From: a phage
Assembly (NCBI GenBank): GCA_021031555.1
Contig: GCA_021031555.1_4954.2
Direction: 5' to 3' (one strand)
Length of the DNA: 16,567 bases
Shown piece by piece: positions 1,403 through 16,450 of the stretch. The notes under the pieces were generated by a model, which was given only the letters and a program-made list of their open reading frames with translations, was not told the DNA's origin and did no database searches. A program made the position numbers and the translations under genes. The stretch's first letter is position 1. The number at the start of each line of letters is the position of its first letter.

Positions 1403-1437
1403 TTTCCTGTTCCTCACAATTCGTTGTCTATGTGAGT

Positions 1438-1479
1438 AATTTACACGGTCTTGTGTAATCCGTCAAGAATTATTTTAAA
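1438..1479 (-). promoter_or_regulatory. Conserved promoter element copy 1 (minus strand: UP-like AT tract, -35 TTGACG, 17-bp spacer, -10 TAAATT)
   Basis: Minus-strand reading TTTAAAATAATTCTTGACG-GATTACACAAGACCGTG-TAAATT; RBS and ATG (1402) about 30 nt downstream. Confidence 0.6.
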
Positions 1480-1502
1480 TAAAACCCCGGTTAGTTCCGG
1501 GG
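1471..1502 (-). terminator. Putative minus-strand intrinsic terminator abutting promoter copy 1
   Basis: Hairpin CCCCGG-ttagtt-CCGGGG (1485..1502) followed on the minus strand by UUUUAUUUAAAAUA; sits just after the stop of ORF 1512..1847. Confidence 0.45.
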
Positions 1503-1511
1503 TAATGTTCG

Positions 1512-1847
1512 TTATTCGCCCAACGCTTCTTTCAGTAACCGATACGTTTCAGGACATTTACCGGATCCGCGTTCATGTTCATAAGCTGCACTAATAACAT
1601 CCCAGTTTTCGATCACACCTTTAAACGCCGGACACTTTTCAGCAATCAATGGAAAACTGTTTCTGATTTCCGGTACAGCTTCAACCAGGAACCAGCAACG
1701 GCGAAAATCGGAAACGTCCCGTGGTGCACGAAATCCCCATTCGCCACCCATTTCATTACCCGTGTGAATGCAGACCATCGTTTTAGAGCTTAGTCCGGTT
1801 TCACCAGAGCATAACCACTGAATAATACGTTCCTGTTCTGTTTTCAT
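1512..1847 (-). CDS. Hypothetical protein (111 aa)
   Basis: ORF track; GGAGG RBS; start overlaps the stop of the upstream gene (ATGA). Confidence 0.6.
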   Translation of the reverse strand: MKTEQERIIQWLCSGETGLSSKTMVCIHTGNEMGGEWGFRAPRDVSDFRRCWFLVEAVPEIRNSFPLIAEKCPAFKGVIENWDVISAAYEHERGSGKCPETYRLLKEALGE

Positions 1848-4094: not shown

Positions 4095-4136
4095 AGTCTA
4101 TCTAATAATGTGTAAACCGTCAAGAATTATTTTAAA
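4095..4136 (-). promoter_or_regulatory. Conserved promoter element copy 2 (-35 TTGACG, -10 TAGACT)
   Basis: Minus-strand TTTAAAATAATTCTTGACG-GTTTACACATTATTAGA-TAGACT; overlaps the 3' end of ORF 4098..4313. Confidence 0.55.
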
Positions 4137-5571: not shown

Positions 5572-5613
5572 AGTCTGACACCACCTCTGTAATCTGTCAA
5601 GAATTATTTTAAA
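5572..5613 (-). promoter_or_regulatory. Conserved promoter element copy 3 (-35 TTGACA, -10 CAGACT; weakest -10 of the set)
   Basis: Minus-strand TTTAAAATAATTCTTGACA-GATTACAGAGGTGGTGT-CAGACT, in the divergent region between the minus cassette and terL. Confidence 0.5.
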
Positions 5614-5676
5614 TCTCTGTCACCACCAATCACCCATGGTAAACTGTACAGAACAGTTACAAACGGACCGATAATC

Positions 5677-7440
5677 ATGAATAAGTTTACTGGAAATATT
5701 CATAATTACCCGCGCTGGCGTGATGCCTACGCAAATGACGAACGTATCTGGCGAAAAGGTCAGCCACGACCAGATTACAAACAGTGTTACATTGACCGTA
5801 TTAACCTGTTAAATCGTATGCGCACGGATCGGGCAATTGTCCCGGTACTGAAAAAGTATTACGAAACAAACCCGGTAGCGTTTATCCTCGACTGGGCGTT
5901 TACTTATGACCCACGTAACGTTGGTACTGAATATCCGCCAAACATGCCTTTCTGCCTTTTCGAACGTCAAATCGACATGGTTCAGTTTGTTTACGAAGCG
6001 CTTGAAGACAAAGAAAAAGGGCTTTGGGAAAAATCGCGAGACTATGGTGCGACCTGGGTAGCCTGTGGTTTGTCCGTGTGGGCGTGGCTGTATCGTCCTG
6101 GTTCGTCAGTCGGCTGGGGTTCACGTAAAGAACAGCTTGTCGATAAACTGGGCGACCCTGATAGTATTTTTGAAAAGATTCGCCAGATTATCCGTGCATT
6201 ACCGCCGGAATTACGCCCTGTTGGTCTGCGTGAAAAAGACCATCTGGTTTATATGAAATGTATCAACCCAGAAAACGGTGCAACAATTACTGGTGAAGCT
6301 GGCGATAACATCGGTCGTGGTGGTCGTAAATCTGTTTACTTTCTCGATGAGGCAGCACACGTAGATCGTCCTGAACTGATTGAAGCGTCGTTGTCAGCTA
6401 ACACCAACGTCCGTATTGACATCAGTTCAGTCAATGGCGTTGGTAACGTTTTTTATCGTAACCGTAAAGCGGGTCTGGAATGGGAACCGGGTAAGAAATT
6501 ACCTCGTGGTAAATTGCGTGTTATGGTTCTGGACTGGCGTGATCACCCGGCTAAAGATGACGAATGGTATAAACGTGAAAAACAATCGTTCGCCGAAAAA
6601 GGTTTACAGCATATTTTCGCACAGGAAGTTGACCGCGATTATGCCGCTGCTGTTCAGGGTGTACTGATTAAAGCTGAATGGGTACGCGCTGCTTTTGACG
6701 CGTTCCGTGACACAGAATGGCGCAAAGCTAATGGACTACTTACACCAACAGGTCAGCGTATCGCCGGACAGGATGCCGCAGACGGTGGTGAAGACGCAAG
6801 CGCACTGGTAATTGCTCACGGTGTATTCCTGACACATCTGCAACTTGACCACAGGGGCGCTGAACTGGCTGCACCAGGGATGTTGACGATGGCTAATATG
6901 CTGGGTGTTGATGAATACTGGTACGAAGTTAACGGTGTTGGTACAGGCGTTAAAGTAGCGGCAAATGACCGGAAAGATACTCTACGCTTCCGTGTGCGTC
7001 CGTGGTTACCGAACGGAAAAGTGGTGGATCCTGGTGGTGATATTATCGGCGGTACGAAACCTGGCGATAAAGACCGTAAATCAAACAAAGATTATTTCTC
7101 AAATTATAAAGCACAGGCATCGTGGGCGTTACGTTTGCGTTGCCAGCGAATTTATAAATGGTATGTGGAAGGTCAACCACAGGATCCAGACGAAATTATT
7201 CTGATTGACCCGTCACTGGAAAACGCACAACGGTTAGAAGCTGAGTTAAGTCAGCCAACGTATACCAGTAACGGTGCCGGGAAGATTGCGATCGACAAGA
7301 AACCAAACGGTAGTAAGTCACCAAACTTTTTCGATGCTGCGGTTATTGCACTATCACCAAAACGTACCGAATTCGTTGAAGAACCATTTACTGGTGGTGT
7401 GAATCCTGTTGGTACTCCTGAATACGGTGACATTTTTTAA
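5677..7440 (+). CDS. terL: Terminase large subunit
   Basis: 587 aa; deviant Walker-A-like KSRDYGAT, Walker-B-like VYFLDEAAH, then an acidic C-terminal domain consistent with the terminase nuclease domain; sits between terS and the putative portal. Confidence 0.8.
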   Translation: MNKFTGNIHNYPRWRDAYANDERIWRKGQPRPDYKQCYIDRINLLNRMRTDRAIVPVLKKYYETNPVAFILDWAFTYDPRNVGTEYPPNMPFCLFERQIDMVQFVYEALEDKEKGLWEKSRDYGATWVACGLSVWAWLYRPGSSVGWGSRKEQLVDKLGDPDSIFEKIRQIIRALPPELRPVGLREKDHLVYMKCINPENGATITGEAGDNIGRGGRKSVYFLDEAAHVDRPELIEASLSANTNVRIDISSVNGVGNVFYRNRKAGLEWEPGKKLPRGKLRVMVLDWRDHPAKDDEWYKREKQSFAEKGLQHIFAQEVDRDYAAAVQGVLIKAEWVRAAFDAFRDTEWRKANGLLTPTGQRIAGQDAADGGEDASALVIAHGVFLTHLQLDHRGAELAAPGMLTMANMLGVDEYWYEVNGVGTGVKVAANDRKDTLRFRVRPWLPNGKVVDPGGDIIGGTKPGDKDRKSNKDYFSNYKAQASWALRLRCQRIYKWYVEGQPQDPDEIILIDPSLENAQRLEAELSQPTYTSNGAGKIAIDKKPNGSKSPNFFDAAVIALSPKRTEFVEEPFTGGVNPVGTPEYGDIF

Positions 7441-7540: not shown

Positions 7541-7566
7541 GCCCCGGAACTGTCCGGGGCTTTTTT
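7541..7566 (+). terminator. Intrinsic terminator
   Basis: GCCCCGGA-actg-TCCGGGGC followed by TTTTTT; preceded by an A-tract, so weak activity on the minus strand is possible. Confidence 0.7.
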
Positions 7567-9018: not shown

Positions 9019-9059
9019 AGCATAATCGCACGTTTGCAATTCGTCAAGAATTATTTTAA
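9019..9059 (-). promoter_or_regulatory. Conserved promoter element copy 4 (-35 TTGACG, -10 TATGCT)
   Basis: Minus-strand TTAAAATAATTCTTGACG-AATTGCAAACGTGCGAT-TATGCT. Confidence 0.6.
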
Positions 9060-9081: not shown

Positions 9082-9090
9082 TGATATAAC
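9082..9090 (+). promoter_or_regulatory. Candidate extended -10 (TGATATAAC) upstream of the portal gene
   Basis: TGnTATAAC about 40 nt upstream of the ATG at 9130; a near-identical TGATATAAT precedes the head-morphogenesis gene. Confidence 0.3.
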
Positions 9091-10488: not shown

Positions 10489-10520
10489 AAAAAGGGACCA
10501 GTAACGGTCCCTTAATTTTA
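10489..10520. terminator. Bidirectional intrinsic terminator between convergent genes
   Basis: aaaaaGGGACC-agtaac-GGTCCCttaatttt: A-tract, 6-bp GC stem, T-tract, so U-rich on both strands; between the portal stop (10485) and the stop of the minus gene (10518). Confidence 0.65.
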
Positions 10521-11240: not shown

Positions 11241-11282
11241 AGGTTACACGTCCTTGTGTAATCCGTCAAGAATTATTTTAAA
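11241..11282 (-). promoter_or_regulatory. Conserved promoter element copy 5 (-35 TTGACG, -10 TAACCT)
   Basis: Minus-strand TTTAAAATAATTCTTGACG-GATTACACAAGGACGTG-TAACCT; overlaps the stop codon of ORF 11273..11521. Confidence 0.55.
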
Positions 11283-12845: not shown

Positions 12846-12888
12846 ATGTTAGTGTGGTCGCTTGCAATGTATCAAGAATTATTTTAAA
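12846..12888 (-). promoter_or_regulatory. Conserved promoter element copy 6 (-35 TTGATA, -10 TAACAT with 18-bp spacer)
   Basis: Minus-strand TTTAAAATAATTCTTGATA-CATTGCAAGCGACCACAC-TAACAT; drives dut. Confidence 0.5.
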
Positions 12889-12918
12889 CTTCTGTCAACG
12901 TTAACCAATGAGGAATAA

Positions 12919-13662
12919 ATGATGTTTGAACAACCGTGGAACATACCTGTATATGATGCTGAAAGTGAAAAACAATCACTTGACTATCGAATGAAAACAC
13001 AACAAGTAGACTGGAGTGAAGCGCCAGACTGGGCTACATGTGTTGTTCTTAATAAAACAACAAACACTTTTGCATGGTCTGACGGTTCAATGTACGCACC
13101 AATTTTAAGAAATCCACCACAAATTATGGAGAATGCTGATGACTTTGAAATCTTTGAAAAACGCTCTTGTGGTCCAGCAACACCTATCAAAACAAAACTG
13201 TTAATGACACCGAAAGCCCGTGGTAACACTTATGAAGAATTCATCGCAACCGGGTGGAACGACGACCAGTTAGTCGAACATGGTTATGCTGTTCGCACCA
13301 ATGATGAAATAACAAAATATGAACAACAGTCATTGGCAGACTTACACCTGGCACATCTATTCACACCTGTTCAACAACCGTCAACAGCGTCTGATTTACT
13401 GAAACAGGCTGAACAGTTACTGACAGAACGTGGTAAGCAGTATGACACGTCTGGTCAGGAACGTTCGTCAGCTAAAATCGTTGCTGCGTTTAACACAATT
13501 ACCGGGCGTGACTTAACACCAGGTGAAGGGTGGTTGTTTCTGATGTTGTTAAAAGCGGTTCGTTTCTATTCCAATACTGAAACACCACATCGTGACAGTC
13601 TGGAAGACCTGATCAGCTACGCTGCATTACACGCAGAGGAATATCTTAACGATGAACGGTGA
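12919..13662 (+). CDS. Hypothetical protein (247 aa)
   Basis: ORF track; GAGGAATAA RBS. C-terminal third (GKQYDTSG...LFLMLLKAVRF...DSLEDLISYAALHAEEY) loosely resembles small all-alpha nucleotide-pyrophosphohydrolase-type domains; unverified. Confidence 0.55.
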   Translation: MMFEQPWNIPVYDAESEKQSLDYRMKTQQVDWSEAPDWATCVVLNKTTNTFAWSDGSMYAPILRNPPQIMENADDFEIFEKRSCGPATPIKTKLLMTPKARGNTYEEFIATGWNDDQLVEHGYAVRTNDEITKYEQQSLADLHLAHLFTPVQQPSTASDLLKQAEQLLTERGKQYDTSGQERSSAKIVAAFNTITGRDLTPGEGWLFLMLLKAVRFYSNTETPHRDSLEDLISYAALHAEEYLNDER

Positions 13663-13834
13663 ACAAGCATTCGACCTTCTGGTCAAATACGACATTATTG
13701 TTATTCACTGTGACCGTGAACAGATCGTTTTTACAGATAATCTTCGTTATGAAGAACCTTATGACGGTGATAAACGGTCTGCCACGATTCGGTTAATCGA
13801 ACGTGTGGCACGTGACAGAGGGGAACTATTATAA
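13652..13834 (+). CDS. Hypothetical protein (60 aa)
   Basis: ORF track; GAGGAA about 12 nt upstream; overlaps the upstream gene end. Confidence 0.45.
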   Translation: MNGEQAFDLLVKYDIIVIHCDREQIVFTDNLRYEEPYDGDKRSATIRLIERVARDRGELL

Positions 13835-14028
13835 TGGTTCAAACTATTTCTGAATTACTACCCACCGTTTATGGCAACGTAACAGAACTTGCCAGGCGGA
13901 TTGGGTGTAACAAAGCGACAGTTTATAAATATATGGATGACACCAACGGTGAATTTCACGCAGTAGTGAATGGTAAGTTGATGGTCAGACCCGGTTTTAA
14001 AGGACGTTATACTCGTGACAAAAGATGA
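13834..14028 (+). CDS. Small helix-turn-helix DNA-binding protein (64 aa)
   Basis: ORF track; HTH-like TELARRIGCNKATVYKYM; GAGGGGAA RBS; start overlaps the upstream stop (TAATG). Confidence 0.55.
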   Translation: MVQTISELLPTVYGNVTELARRIGCNKATVYKYMDDTNGEFHAVVNGKLMVRPGFKGRYTRDKR

Positions 14029-14158
14029 AAAATTATTACGTGAACTTGAAATAGACTACGAACGAGCACAAAAAGCGTTACAGTTTCTGGAAGAACAGAT
14101 CCGCGAAGTTAAGAACCGCATTCAGGGAACTGAAAAACGTAATCTTCCACGCCCGTAA
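14015..14158 (+). CDS. Possible small coiled-coil ORF (47 aa, GTG start)
   Basis: Hand translation VTKDEKLLRELEIDYERAQKALQFLEEQIREVKNRIQGTEKRNLPRP; overlaps the 3' end of the HTH gene in another frame; weak RBS. Confidence 0.25.
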   Translation: MTKDEKLLRELEIDYERAQKALQFLEEQIREVKNRIQGTEKRNLPRP

Positions 14159-14162
14159 CACG

Positions 14163-14171
14163 TGATATAAT
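14163..14171 (+). promoter_or_regulatory. Candidate extended -10 promoter TGATATAAT
   Basis: Exact TGnTATAAT; predicted start site falls inside the left arm of the terminator hairpin at 14174..14201. Confidence 0.35.
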
Positions 14172-14173
14172 CG

Positions 14174-14201
14174 GCCTCAGTGTGTTAACTGAGGCTTTTT
14201 T
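14174..14201 (+). terminator. Intrinsic terminator whose 3' arm contains the RBS of the next gene
   Basis: GCCTCAGT-gtgtta-ACTGAGGC followed by TTTTTT and then ATG at 14202; the GAGG Shine-Dalgarno is part of the 3' stem arm. Confidence 0.65.
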
Positions 14202-15161
14202 ATGGCTACTAAAGACCCATACCCAGATATTTCAGACAAATATGATGCTCGCATTCGTGAAGCACTTGATGTTGTGTGGGAAAACGTGCGTCGTAGTGAG
14301 TCGTTAGCTAACCTGGAATACATCATTGAAACTCAGGGTATTACCGGATTACTCCCAATTCTTGAAACACTCCCTGATGAACTTAGTGCACAGTTGCGTC
14401 CGGTTATTGAAGATGCGATCGCCGAATCAGGTCGTGTAGTCGTTCAGGTTCTACCGAAAGCGGCTGTGACAGGTCCGGTTGTGTTCAGTCTGGTCACCCC
14501 ACAGGTCAGTACATACATCAACAACTATGTCGGACAACTGATCCGTGAAGTCAGTGATGAAACAGTCAAAGCTGTTCAGATTGCTGTTAACCAGGGTGTG
14601 GTAACCGGACGAAATCCGCGTCAGATAGCCCGTGATTTTCGATCGTCAATAGGGTTAACCACACGGCAGGAAATGACGGTTCAACGTCTGCGATCAGCAC
14701 TGGAAAAAGGTGAAGCAGGTTATATAAACAGTCTGACCACTGTTACAGACAGTGCGAAGAACGCTGTAAGTGCCGGGAAACTATCACAGGCGAAGATTGA
14801 CCAGATAATCGAACAGACACGTTTACGTTACGTAAAACAGCGCACAGAAACAATAGCGCGTACTGAATCACTTCGTGCTGTATCCGTTGGTCAGGACCAG
14901 GCAATACGTCAGGGACAGATTACCGGGACTATTAGTAATGAATTGCTGAAGCGCTGGTTATATAGAAAGGATGGTCGGACACGTGATGCGCATATTTCCA
15001 CAGGTGAAACGAACGGCTGGATACCAATGGACAGACCGTTTTCAACGCCGTTAGGACCACTTATGTTCCCTCGTGATCCTAACGGTAGTGCCGCGAACGT
15101 GATTAATTGCCGTTGCAGGGTACAGTACAGTTTACCGGAAGATATAGGTTCGTTGGGTTAA
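14202..15161 (+). CDS. Head morphogenesis protein, Mu F / SPP1 gp7 family
   Basis: 319 aa; C-terminal region RTESLRAVSVGQ...W..RKDGRTRDAH...NVINCRCRVQY fits the Mu-F-like signature (R.TE...W...D.RTR..H...NCRC). Confidence 0.75.
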   Translation: MATKDPYPDISDKYDARIREALDVVWENVRRSESLANLEYIIETQGITGLLPILETLPDELSAQLRPVIEDAIAESGRVVVQVLPKAAVTGPVVFSLVTPQVSTYINNYVGQLIREVSDETVKAVQIAVNQGVVTGRNPRQIARDFRSSIGLTTRQEMTVQRLRSALEKGEAGYINSLTTVTDSAKNAVSAGKLSQAKIDQIIEQTRLRYVKQRTETIARTESLRAVSVGQDQAIRQGQITGTISNELLKRWLYRKDGRTRDAHISTGETNGWIPMDRPFSTPLGPLMFPRDPNGSAANVINCRCRVQYSLPEDIGSLG

Positions 15162-15388
15162 TCAGGTTCACGCCAGTCAAGAGGTCGCACATCACATAAC
15201 AGACGAACATTATCTTCAAATTTTATGTTTATCCTGTGATGTGCCGTATCATTTTCATAAACAGAAGGCCATATTTCATAACCCTGAACAGTTCGTACCA
15301 CCCACTTGTTAATGCTTGCCAGATGGATCAACACTTCACAACCAACGGGAGGAAGGTTTTTACCATCCCAAATCTGTTTCATTCCCAT
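15158..15388 (-). CDS. Small protein with a WDG-LPPVG domain (76 aa)
   Basis: ORF track; WDGKNLPPVGCEVLIHLASINKWVVRTVQGYEIW resembles 11524..11985; stop overlaps the head-morphogenesis stop (convergent). Confidence 0.55.
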   Translation of the reverse strand: MGMKQIWDGKNLPPVGCEVLIHLASINKWVVRTVQGYEIWPSVYENDTAHHRINIKFEDNVRLLCDVRPLDWREPD

Positions 15389-16408: not shown

Positions 16409-16450
16409 AAGATACCCCACCGCTTGCAATCCGTCAAGAATTATTTTAAA
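16409..16450 (-). promoter_or_regulatory. Conserved promoter element copy 7 (-35 TTGACG, -10 TATCTT)
   Basis: Minus-strand TTTAAAATAATTCTTGACG-GATTGCAAGCGGTGGGG-TATCTT. Confidence 0.6.

What the first reader, a model, noticed from the sequence alone, without database searches (positions are those of the whole stretch)
14163..14204. Terminator hairpin that sequesters the head-morphogenesis RBS, with a promoter that would start inside it
The hairpin GCCTCAGT-gtgtta-ACTGAGGC plus TTTTTT ends 1 nt before the ATG at 14202, and the gene's GAGG Shine-Dalgarno is part of the 3' arm. Read-through transcripts would therefore terminate or have the RBS masked. An exact TGATATAAT sits just upstream, so transcripts starting from it would begin inside the 5' arm, could not form the hairpin, and would expose the RBS. 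A similar TGATATAAC precedes the portal gene.
Basis: partly seen in the sequence, partly recalled or inferred. Interest (0 to 1): 0.45.

Follow-up and report, generated by a model that had tools for sequence, protein, structure and literature searches.

The report
Promoter nested in RBS-masking terminator hairpin
In this 9NA-like E. coli phage, the 43-base gap before the head-morphogenesis gene packs a promoter, a terminator-like hairpin and the ribosome-binding site on top of one another, so only RNAs started at that promoter should be well translated; phage T4 is already known to use the same trick.

Summary
An exact extended -10 (TGATATAAT, 14163-14171) lies 1 nt before a 9-bp hairpin (14173-14196, -15.4 kcal/mol). 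The hairpin is followed by T6 and then directly by the ATG at 14202. The GAGG Shine-Dalgarno (14191-14194) is in the 3' arm.

The window is a 9NA/Sasha-like siphovirus. Across six E. coli, Salmonella and Klebsiella phage lineages, mean pairwise identity is 96% for the -10 and 90% for the stem, but 33% for the loop and 51% for the T tract. One stem pair runs C-G, U.G, U-A. Two lineages lost the U tract yet lengthened the stem. Pairing, not termination, is therefore the conserved property.

More distant relatives keep a TGnTAnAnT element before this gene without the hairpin. The same element precedes the portal, terminase and lysis genes.

Folding gives about 16 kcal/mol to open the ribosome site in read-through RNA, against 7-8 kcal/mol in RNA started at 14177-14181.

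It duplicates the T4 gene e/soc/49/I-TevI logic with a different promoter class, so I file it as a new member of a known kind, of modest interest.

The parts
12862..12890 (+). Tentative sigma-70 promoter of the upstream + strand operon (TTGCAA, 17 nt, TAAACT). It overlaps a divergent early-promoter module.
   Evidence: Read. It matches only 8 of 12 consensus positions, so the scan does not list it. The equivalent TTGTAA-17-TAAACT is present in 9NA. This is an inference.
12919..14158 (+). Upstream co-oriented four-gene block: a DUF6378 protein, a 60-aa protein, NinH and a 47-aa coiled-coil ORF (14015-14158). Its transcripts run into the hairpin.
   Evidence: ORFs; Pfam and PHROG hits; matching annotation in Bas82, AVIO78A and 9NA. 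No + strand terminator lies inside the block.
14163..14171 (+). Extended -10 promoter element TGATATAAT (TGn + consensus TATAAT), with no usable -35.
   Evidence: Mean pairwise identity across six lineages is 96%, although the upstream gene differs in the Klebsiella phages. The only variants are at the free N position (TGGTATAAT in L016) and TACAAT in Klebsiella phages.
14177..14180 (+). Predicted transcription start window, most likely A14179 after C14178. It lies inside the 5' arm.
   Evidence: Inferred from the usual 6-9 nt distance between the -10 and the start, and the preference for a purine after a pyrimidine (established knowledge). The C-A step is conserved in all variants.
14173..14181 (+). 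5' arm of the hairpin (GGCCTCAGT).
   Evidence: Mean pairwise identity of this arm is 87%.
14182..14187 (+). Loop (GTGTTA).
   Evidence: Loop sequence and length (6-8 nt) vary freely; mean pairwise identity is 33%.
14188..14196 (+). 3' arm of the hairpin (ACTGAGGCT).
   Evidence: Pair C14178-G14191 is U.G in 9NA and U-A in L108.
14191..14194 (+). Shine-Dalgarno GAGG of the head-morphogenesis gene, 7 nt before the ATG and inside the 3' arm.
   Evidence: P(unpaired) is 0.0 in read-through RNA. It is AAGG in L108, where the pairing partner also changed.
14196..14201 (+). T6 tract: the terminator U tract and, at the same time, the spacer between SD and ATG.
   Evidence: It is TTTTTT or TTTTCT in four lineages but TGAATC or TGATTC in L011 and L108. 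Mean pairwise identity is 51%.
14202..15161 (+). Head-morphogenesis gene (319 aa; Phage_Mu_F / SPP1 gp7-like).
   Evidence: Pfam PF04233 at 1.2e-10; phrog_2468 at 1.8e-70; annotations in relatives. The ATG keeps its distance from the hairpin even where the N-terminus differs.
9082..9090 (+). Sister element TGATATAAC, 39 nt before the portal ATG (9130).
   Evidence: It is conserved in 9NA and in Klebsiella phage Carvaje while the bases just upstream diverge.
5637..5645 (+). Sister element TGGTAAACT, 31 nt before the large-terminase ATG (5677).
   Evidence: It is identical in 9NA. The same TGTGGTAAACT is the only promoter-like element before the head-morphogenesis gene of Proteus phage RS10pmA.

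Best explanation
The 43-nt gap between the upstream operon and the head-morphogenesis gene holds three overlapping signals.

1. A host sigma-70 extended -10 promoter (TGATATAAT) that needs no -35. It belongs to a set of similar elements in front of the phage's head, tail and lysis genes.

2. A 9-bp G+C-rich hairpin followed by U6. In RNA coming from the upstream NinH-containing operon it acts as an intrinsic terminator. In molecules that escape termination it locks the GAGG Shine-Dalgarno in its 3' arm.

3. The ribosome-binding site and ATG of the head-morphogenesis gene.

The promoter's start point (about A14179) lies inside the 5' arm. RNAs made from this promoter therefore lack that arm, cannot form the hairpin, are not terminated, and carry a much more open ribosome site. 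The gene's expression is thereby tied to its own promoter and uncoupled from upstream transcription.

Shown here: the sequence geometry, the folding energies, conservation of the -10 and of the pairing, and recurrence of the promoter type. Inferred: promoter activity, the start point, termination efficiency, the timing of the two transcript classes, and the size of the translational effect. A difference of 8-9 kcal/mol would give a few tens of fold under standard thermodynamic models of initiation.
For: Geometry.

Folding:
- The hairpin alone is -15.4 kcal/mol.
- In read-through RNA the SD is fully paired. Opening SD-2..AUG+12 costs 16.0-16.1 kcal/mol.
- In RNA starting at 14177-14181 the same opening costs 7.4-8.4 kcal/mol.

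Conservation across six lineages:
- Mean pairwise identity is 0.96 for the -10, 0.90 for the stem, 0.33 for the loop and 0.51 for the tail.
- Third codon positions of the adjoining gene are 0.52-0.72 identical between lineages.

Pairing:
- 93% of pair cells are standard pairs in register, against 18-51% when the 3' partner is slid.
- Pair 14178-14191 is C-G in 7 of the 9 aligned variants, U.G in 9NA and U-A in L108.
- L011 and L108 have no U tract but gain an extra C-G pair, with hairpins of -17.8 and -16.4 kcal/mol. The hairpin is therefore kept without termination.

Promoter:
- In Klebsiella phages the upstream gene is unrelated, yet the module starting at the stop codon is kept.
- In Proteus and Morganella relatives the gene follows a divergent gene and so must have its own promoter. 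The only candidates are TGTGGTAAACT and TGTGCTAAGAT.
- L024 has terminator, then TGGTATACT, then the RBS in series.
- In 9NA all three TGATATAAY sites in the 50 kb examined (of 52.9 kb), both strands, lie 31-45 nt upstream, in sense, of the portal, head-morphogenesis and lysis-cassette starts. The lysis-gene copy is also present in Bas82.

Precedent: the same logic has been demonstrated for T4 gene e (PMC3014915).
Against: - There are no transcript 5' or 3' ends, and no expression data, for any 9NA-like phage. The main genomics paper is not held in the paper library.
- Diversity is limited to 9 distinct variants. In the covariation test 26-42 of 500 shuffles do as well.
- The 3' arm could be conserved simply because it holds the SD. 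The 5' arm could be conserved as the promoter's discriminator and initial transcribed region.
- The loose extended -10 pattern is not enriched in the window.
- The RBS opening cost of the 9NA orthologue (16.2 kcal/mol) ranks only 6th of 76 genes (mean 8.8, sd 4.05). It is high but not unique.
- The promoter-started RNA still pays 7-8 kcal/mol.
- The AVIO78A record, which has the identical sequence, was annotated with TransTermHP and WebGeSTer and lists no terminator here. The Sasha record does.
- Whether the upstream operon is expressed earlier than the head gene is unknown.
Confidence: 0.6

Rival explanations
1. The hairpin is an ordinary intrinsic terminator of the upstream operon, squeezed against the next gene by genome compaction. 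The overlap with the SD and the nearby -10 has no regulatory meaning. The head gene is expressed from its promoter (or by leak-through), and the masking of read-through RNA is an unselected by-product.
For: The stem and U6 are of good quality. The orthologous site is annotated simply as a terminator in the Sasha record. These phages have very short intergenic gaps. A relative, L024, carries the same signals in series without overlap.
Against: L011 and L108 have lost the U tract but kept and lengthened the hairpin, with a two-sided change that preserves a pair. The tail is the least conserved part of the module after the loop, at 0.51 against 0.90 for the stem.
Confidence: 0.2
2. The conserved SD-containing hairpin is a target for a trans-acting factor: a translational repressor or operator-binding protein, an RNase III-type processing enzyme, or a 3'-end stabiliser for the upstream mRNA. 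In this view it is not a self-contained switch between transcript isoforms.
For: The stem sequence is almost invariant rather than merely complementary; 5 of 10 pairs never vary. That pattern is also what a sequence-specific binding site would show. The hairpin persists where termination is lost.
Against: No candidate factor is known. The loop, usually part of a protein operator, is unconserved in both sequence and length. A 9-bp stem is short for RNase III. No Rfam family matches.
Confidence: 0.12
3. The combination is a chance juxtaposition. TGATATAAT is not an active promoter, and the gene is read only from upstream transcripts that pass a leaky terminator.
For: Counts of extended -10-like motifs in the window match random expectation. 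No -35 element is present.
Against: The nonamer is 96% conserved across genera, next to loop and tail sequence at 33-51%. The same element type sits before the orthologous gene in Proteus, Morganella, Vibrio and Enterobacter phages, and before other late genes. Read-through RNA would have a fully masked SD.
Confidence: 0.05

Closest known systems
T4 gene e (lysozyme), soc, 49 and I-TevI, and the Aeh1 mobE hairpin: translational control by transcript isoform (McPheeters et al. 1986; reviewed in PMC3014915)
   Same: Long transcripts from upstream promoters carry the gene, but the SD and/or AUG is locked in a helix. A promoter sits so that its transcripts start within or after the 5' strand of that helix, and these are translated. 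The arrangement serves a late gene lying downstream of differently timed genes.
   Different: T4 uses gp55-dependent late promoters (TATAAATA). Here the element is a host sigma-70 extended -10 (TGnTATAAT). In most lineages the helix here also has the U tract of an intrinsic terminator. The regulated gene is a Mu F / SPP1 gp7-like head protein in an unrelated siphovirus. There is no sequence homology, so this is an analogue and not a family member. The T4 cases are experimentally proven; this one is not.
Rho-independent (intrinsic) terminators between phage transcription units
   Same: A G+C-rich 9-bp stem, a 6-nt loop and U6, placed 15 nt after the stop codon of a co-oriented gene. The orthologous site is annotated as a terminator in the phage Sasha record.
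   Different: The U tract runs directly into the next gene's ATG, and the 3' arm is that gene's SD. A promoter -10 lies 1 nt upstream. Two related lineages keep the hairpin without the U tract.
Extended -10 (TGn) sigma-70 promoters, such as E. coli galP1, which work without a -35 (from established knowledge)
   Same: TG at -15/-14, one free base, then consensus TATAAT, with no recognisable -35. The free base does vary among relatives (TGG in L016).
   Different: Here the element forms a phage-specific set in front of head, tail and lysis genes. It contrasts with a stereotyped A/T-rich + TTGAC promoter module used for the opposite-strand gene blocks. Its activity and timing have not been measured.

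Membership tests
Intrinsic (Rho-independent) terminator | Stable G+C-rich stem-loop | tested here: met
   9 pairs, 5 of them G-C, loop of 6, -15.4 kcal/mol.
Intrinsic (Rho-independent) terminator | U-rich tract immediately 3' of the stem | tested here: met
   T6 at 14196-14201 in the window. Among relatives it is TTTTTT or TTTTCT in four lineages and absent in L011 and L108.
Intrinsic (Rho-independent) terminator | RNA 3' ends produced at the U tract | not testable with these tools
   No Term-seq or in vitro data. Annotated as a terminator in the Sasha record but not in AVIO78A.
Sigma-70 extended -10 promoter | TG at -15/-14 plus a -10 hexamer close to TATAAT | tested here: met
   TGATATAAT is an exact match.
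Sigma-70 extended -10 promoter | Placed upstream of a gene and conserved beyond the neutral background | tested here: met
   It lies 30 nt before the ATG. Mean pairwise identity is 0.96, against 0.33 for the loop and 0.52-0.72 for third codon positions. Equivalent elements are present in distant relatives.
Sigma-70 extended -10 promoter | Mapped transcription start 6-9 nt downstream | not testable with these tools
   The start at 14177-14180 is predicted only.
T4 gene e-type isoform-dependent translational control | SD and/or AUG sequestered in a stable helix in the long transcript | tested here: met
   P(unpaired) of the SD is 0.0 and the opening cost is 16 kcal/mol. This is a computation only.
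T4 gene e-type isoform-dependent translational control | Internal promoter whose transcripts lack the 5' strand of the helix | tested here: met
   The -10 ends 1 nt before the 5' arm, so every plausible start lies inside it. The opening cost drops to 7.4-8.4 kcal/mol. This rests on geometry; the start point is inferred.
T4 gene e-type isoform-dependent translational control | Upstream co-oriented transcription that enters the gene at a different time | tested here: inconclusive
   A co-oriented four-gene block without an internal terminator lies upstream. Its timing and read-through are unknown.
T4 gene e-type isoform-dependent translational control | T4-type late promoter (TATAAATA, gp55-dependent) and homology to T4 leaders | tested here: not met
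   The promoter is TGATATAAT in a 9NA-like siphovirus. It therefore works like the T4 cases but is not a member by descent.

The most novel reading that the evidence does not exclude
The element may be one instance of a general design in 9NA-like phages. Late transcription units would be delimited by modules in which an extended -10 sits immediately upstream of a hairpin, so that the new transcript starts inside the hairpin and escapes it. A second candidate follows the major capsid gene: TGTGGTATTAT or TGTGGTAACAT lies 3 nt before a terminator. The split between -35-dependent early promoters with an A/T-rich upstream stretch and -35-independent late promoters hints at an AsiA-like switch acting on sigma region 4. 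In that picture the hairpin's selected role is the translational lock. Termination would be an optional add-on that lineages gain and lose (U tract versus G-extended stem).
Probability: 0.25. Interest if true: 0.5.

Novelty: new member of a known kind. Interest (0 to 1): 0.3.

Why it matters
If confirmed, this shows that a small siphovirus relying on the host polymerase reached the same solution as T4 for uncoupling a structural gene from upstream transcription. It does so within 43 bases and with one hairpin serving as terminator, translational lock and 5' leader. That would be useful for annotating transcription units in 9NA-like phages, whose head genes are scattered among opposite-strand blocks. 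It would also offer a compact natural insulator part for synthetic biology. It does not open a new class of mechanism.

Tried and rejected
- Rfam, whole window at gathering thresholds and 14080-14280 at E up to 10: only sub-threshold Spot 42 and NsiR1 matches, driven by the terminator shape. Rejected.
- Motif enrichment in the window. TGNTATAAY (2 against 1.5 expected) and TGNTANAMY (13 against 12.7) are not enriched. The promoter case therefore rests on position and conservation only. I chose the loose pattern after seeing the sites, so any positional statistic built on it is circular.
- Is the RBS masking unique? No. The 9NA orthologue ranks 6th of 76 genes for opening cost.
- Is an extended -10 typical just before terminators? 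A home-made scan of the window and 9NA flagged only the head-gene site and a weak TGGTAGTTT before the terminator after the major tail gene. The post-capsid case was seen by eye. This is too few to generalise.
- More diversity. An IMG/VR scan with a protein profile gave mostly relatives at or below 53% identity, which lack the module. The metagenome scan added L108 and L111. No lineage lies between 56% and 87% protein identity.
- Literature. No transcriptome or start-site map for Nonanavirus or Sashavirus was found. Zeng et al. 2019 (J Virol) is not held. The BASEL paper says nothing on transcription.
- Translational coupling with the upstream ORF was considered and rejected. Its stop codon lies 15 nt before the stem, too far for a terminating ribosome to open it.
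- A terminator on the opposite strand was rejected. On the - strand the hairpin is followed by CGATTATATCA, not a T run.

Full report
**What the window is.** The region is 95-97% identical to the E. coli phages KarinMuster_Bas82, AVIO78A and PJ16. It is about 81% identical to the Salmonella phages 9NA, SP069 and Sasha, and about 79% to Klebsiella phage Carvaje. These are 9NA-like siphoviruses (Nonanavirus / Sashavirus). The gene at 14202-15161 is the Mu F / SPP1 gp7-like head-morphogenesis protein (PF04233 at 1.2e-10, phrog_2468 at 1.8e-70). In this phage group the large terminase (5677), portal (9130) and head-morphogenesis (14202) genes are on the + strand, each separated by blocks of small - strand genes. 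Four small co-oriented genes (12919-14158) directly precede the head gene: a DUF6378 protein, a 60-aa protein, NinH and a 47-aa coiled-coil ORF.

**The observation.**
- TAA stop of the upstream ORF at 14156-14158.
- TGATATAAT at 14163-14171.
- 5' arm GGCCTCAGT at 14173-14181.
- Loop GTGTTA at 14182-14187.
- 3' arm ACTGAGGCT at 14188-14196.
- T run to 14201, then ATG at 14202.
- GAGG at 14191-14194, inside the 3' arm and 7 nt before the ATG.

The consensus scan lists the hairpin among the better terminator-like sites. It folds at -15.4 kcal/mol, and its 91-nt context folds with z = -2.6. TGATATAAC lies 39 nt before the portal ATG. Motif counts alone are at chance level.

**Comparative evidence for the hairpin.** I collected the orthologous region from GenBank phages, IMG/VR and metagenome contigs. 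Ten distinct versions of the module were found, and nine were aligned.
- Across six lineages, mean pairwise identity is 0.96 for the nonamer, 0.90 for the stem, 0.33 for the loop and 0.51 for the tail.
- Third codon positions of the adjoining gene are 0.52-0.72 identical between lineages.
- Loops differ in sequence and length (6-8 nt). Hairpin stability stays between -13.8 and -17.8 kcal/mol.
- In register, 93% of pair cells are standard pairs, against 18-51% when the 3' partner is slid.
- Pair C14178-G14191 is C-G in seven variants, U.G in 9NA and U-A in L108. L108 is otherwise 96% identical to Sasha in the head gene.
- Two further one-sided changes keep pairing through G.U.

With so few variants the covariation statistics are only moderate; 26-42 of 500 shuffles do as well.

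**Termination is not the conserved property.** L011 and L108 have TGAATC and TGATTC in place of the T tract. The new G pairs with the C that follows TATAAT, giving a 10-11 bp stem of -17.8 and -16.4 kcal/mol. These lineages keep and strengthen an SD-containing hairpin that can no longer be an intrinsic terminator. In the window itself the U6 tract is intact, so termination of the upstream operon is likely there. The Sasha record annotates the orthologous site as a terminator overlapping the RBS. The AVIO78A record, with identical sequence, does not.

**Comparative evidence for the promoter.**
- In Klebsiella phages the gene upstream is unrelated, yet the module is conserved from that gene's stop codon onward.
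- In Proteus and Morganella relatives (about 55% protein identity) the head gene follows a divergent gene and must have its own promoter. The only promoter-like elements are TGTGGTAAACT and TGTGCTAAGAT.
- Vibrio and Enterobacter relatives have TGATATAAC / TGCTATACT and GCGATATAAT.
- L024 (53% identity) has a separate terminator, then TGGTATACT, then the RBS in series.
- Within the genome, the same type of element precedes the terminase (TGGTAAACT, 5637-5645) and portal (TGATATAAC, 9082-9090). In 9NA and Bas82 it also precedes the lysis cassette (TGATATAAT), and, one or other of the two lacking the TG, the major tail and tape-measure genes.
- In 9NA all three TGATATAAY sites in the 50 kb examined (of 52.9 kb), both strands, lie 31-45 nt upstream, in sense, of the portal, head-morphogenesis and lysis-cassette starts.
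- In contrast, the - strand blocks use a stereotyped module, AAAATAATTCTTGAY. It occurs seven times in the window, always on the - strand, against 0.01 expected.

**Mechanism.** The -10 hexamer ends at 14171 and the 5' arm starts at 14173. Starts normally fall 6-9 nt downstream of the hexamer (established knowledge). That gives 14177-14180, most likely A14179 after C14178, a step conserved in all variants. Folding gives the following.
- RNAs that contain the 5' arm have the SD fully paired. Opening SD-2..AUG+12 costs 16.0-16.1 kcal/mol.
- RNAs starting at 14177-14181 pay 7.4-8.4 kcal/mol.

Under standard thermodynamic models of initiation, 8-9 kcal/mol would mean a few tens of fold; this is an inference. 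Transcripts from the upstream operon should therefore either stop at the U tract or carry a locked ribosome site. Transcripts from the nested promoter escape both. The opening cost is high but not unique: the 9NA orthologue ranks 6th of 76 genes.

**Comparison with what is known.** This is the logic established for T4 genes e, soc, 49 and I-TevI. There, early read-through RNAs have the ribosome site in a helix, and late promoters lie in the DNA encoding the 5' strand of that helix (PMC3014915). The present case differs in three ways.
- The promoter class is a sigma-70 extended -10, not a gp55-dependent one.
- The helix doubles as an intrinsic terminator in most lineages.
- The phage group and the regulated gene are different.

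It is an analogue, not a homologue. No Rfam family covers it, and no transcript data exist for these phages.

**Verdict.** I file it as a new member of a known kind of control, of modest interest (0.3). Confidence in the proposed mechanism is about 0.6. The main rival is a plain terminator whose masking of the RBS is incidental (0.2).

Noticed in passing
window 1462-1476, 4119-4133, 5596-5610, 9043-9057, 11265-11279, 12871-12885, 16433-16447 (all - strand): There are seven copies of AAAATAATTCTTGAY against 0.01 expected. Each is an A/T-rich upstream stretch plus a TTGAC -35 at the head of a - strand block of small genes. This looks like a stereotyped strong, probably early, promoter. 9NA also has + strand copies.
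   Followed up: partly
L002 13655-13735; L003 11407-11488 (9NA record 19301-19365); L005 13172-13252: Just after the major capsid gene, TGTGGTATTAT (E. coli phages) or TGTGGTAACAT (9NA) lies 3 nt before a terminator hairpin, GGGGTGGC-ttat-GCTGCCCC-T6. This is a possible second promoter whose start falls inside a terminator stem. The TG is absent in Klebsiella phage Carvaje.
   Followed up: partly
L024 about 1400-1500: In a relative with 53% protein identity, the head-morphogenesis gene is preceded by the same three signals in series: terminator GCCCGC-ctcgt-GCGGGC-T5, then TGGTATACT, then the RBS. This may be the non-overlapping ancestral layout.
   Followed up: no
L022 (9NA) about 25200-25262: The tape-measure gene start has a high predicted RBS opening cost of 18.7 kcal/mol. 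An inverted repeat GGTTAA...TTAACC has its 5' half overlapping a -10-like GTTAAACT. This could be another isoform-dependent lock.
   Followed up: no
L022 (9NA) 1425-1634 (-) and 6174-6524 (+): These two genes have the highest predicted RBS opening costs in 9NA, at 23.6 and 20.8 kcal/mol. They could be structured leaders or mis-annotated starts.
   Followed up: no
window 10492-10513, both strands: A bidirectional terminator-like hairpin (AAGGGACC...GGTCCCTT) lies between the portal gene and the convergent - strand block. It is annotated on both strands in AVIO78A.
   Followed up: no
window 7541-7560 (+): A strong terminator-like hairpin, GCCCCGG-aact-GTCCGGGGC followed by T6, lies 100 nt after the large terminase gene. 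The orthologous hairpin in 9NA (6948-6967) lies after gp15, four small + strand genes downstream of the terminase gene.
   Followed up: no
window 15158-15161: The head-morphogenesis stop codon overlaps by 4 nt the end of a convergent - strand ORF (15158-15388) (annotated likewise in Bas82). No strong terminator separates the converging units.
   Followed up: no
L011 and L108, module upstream of the head gene: The U tract is replaced by TGAATC or TGATTC, and the stem gains a C-G pair. L108 is 96% identical to Sasha in the head gene but carries a different hairpin version. This suggests rapid turnover or recombination of the module.
   Followed up: partly
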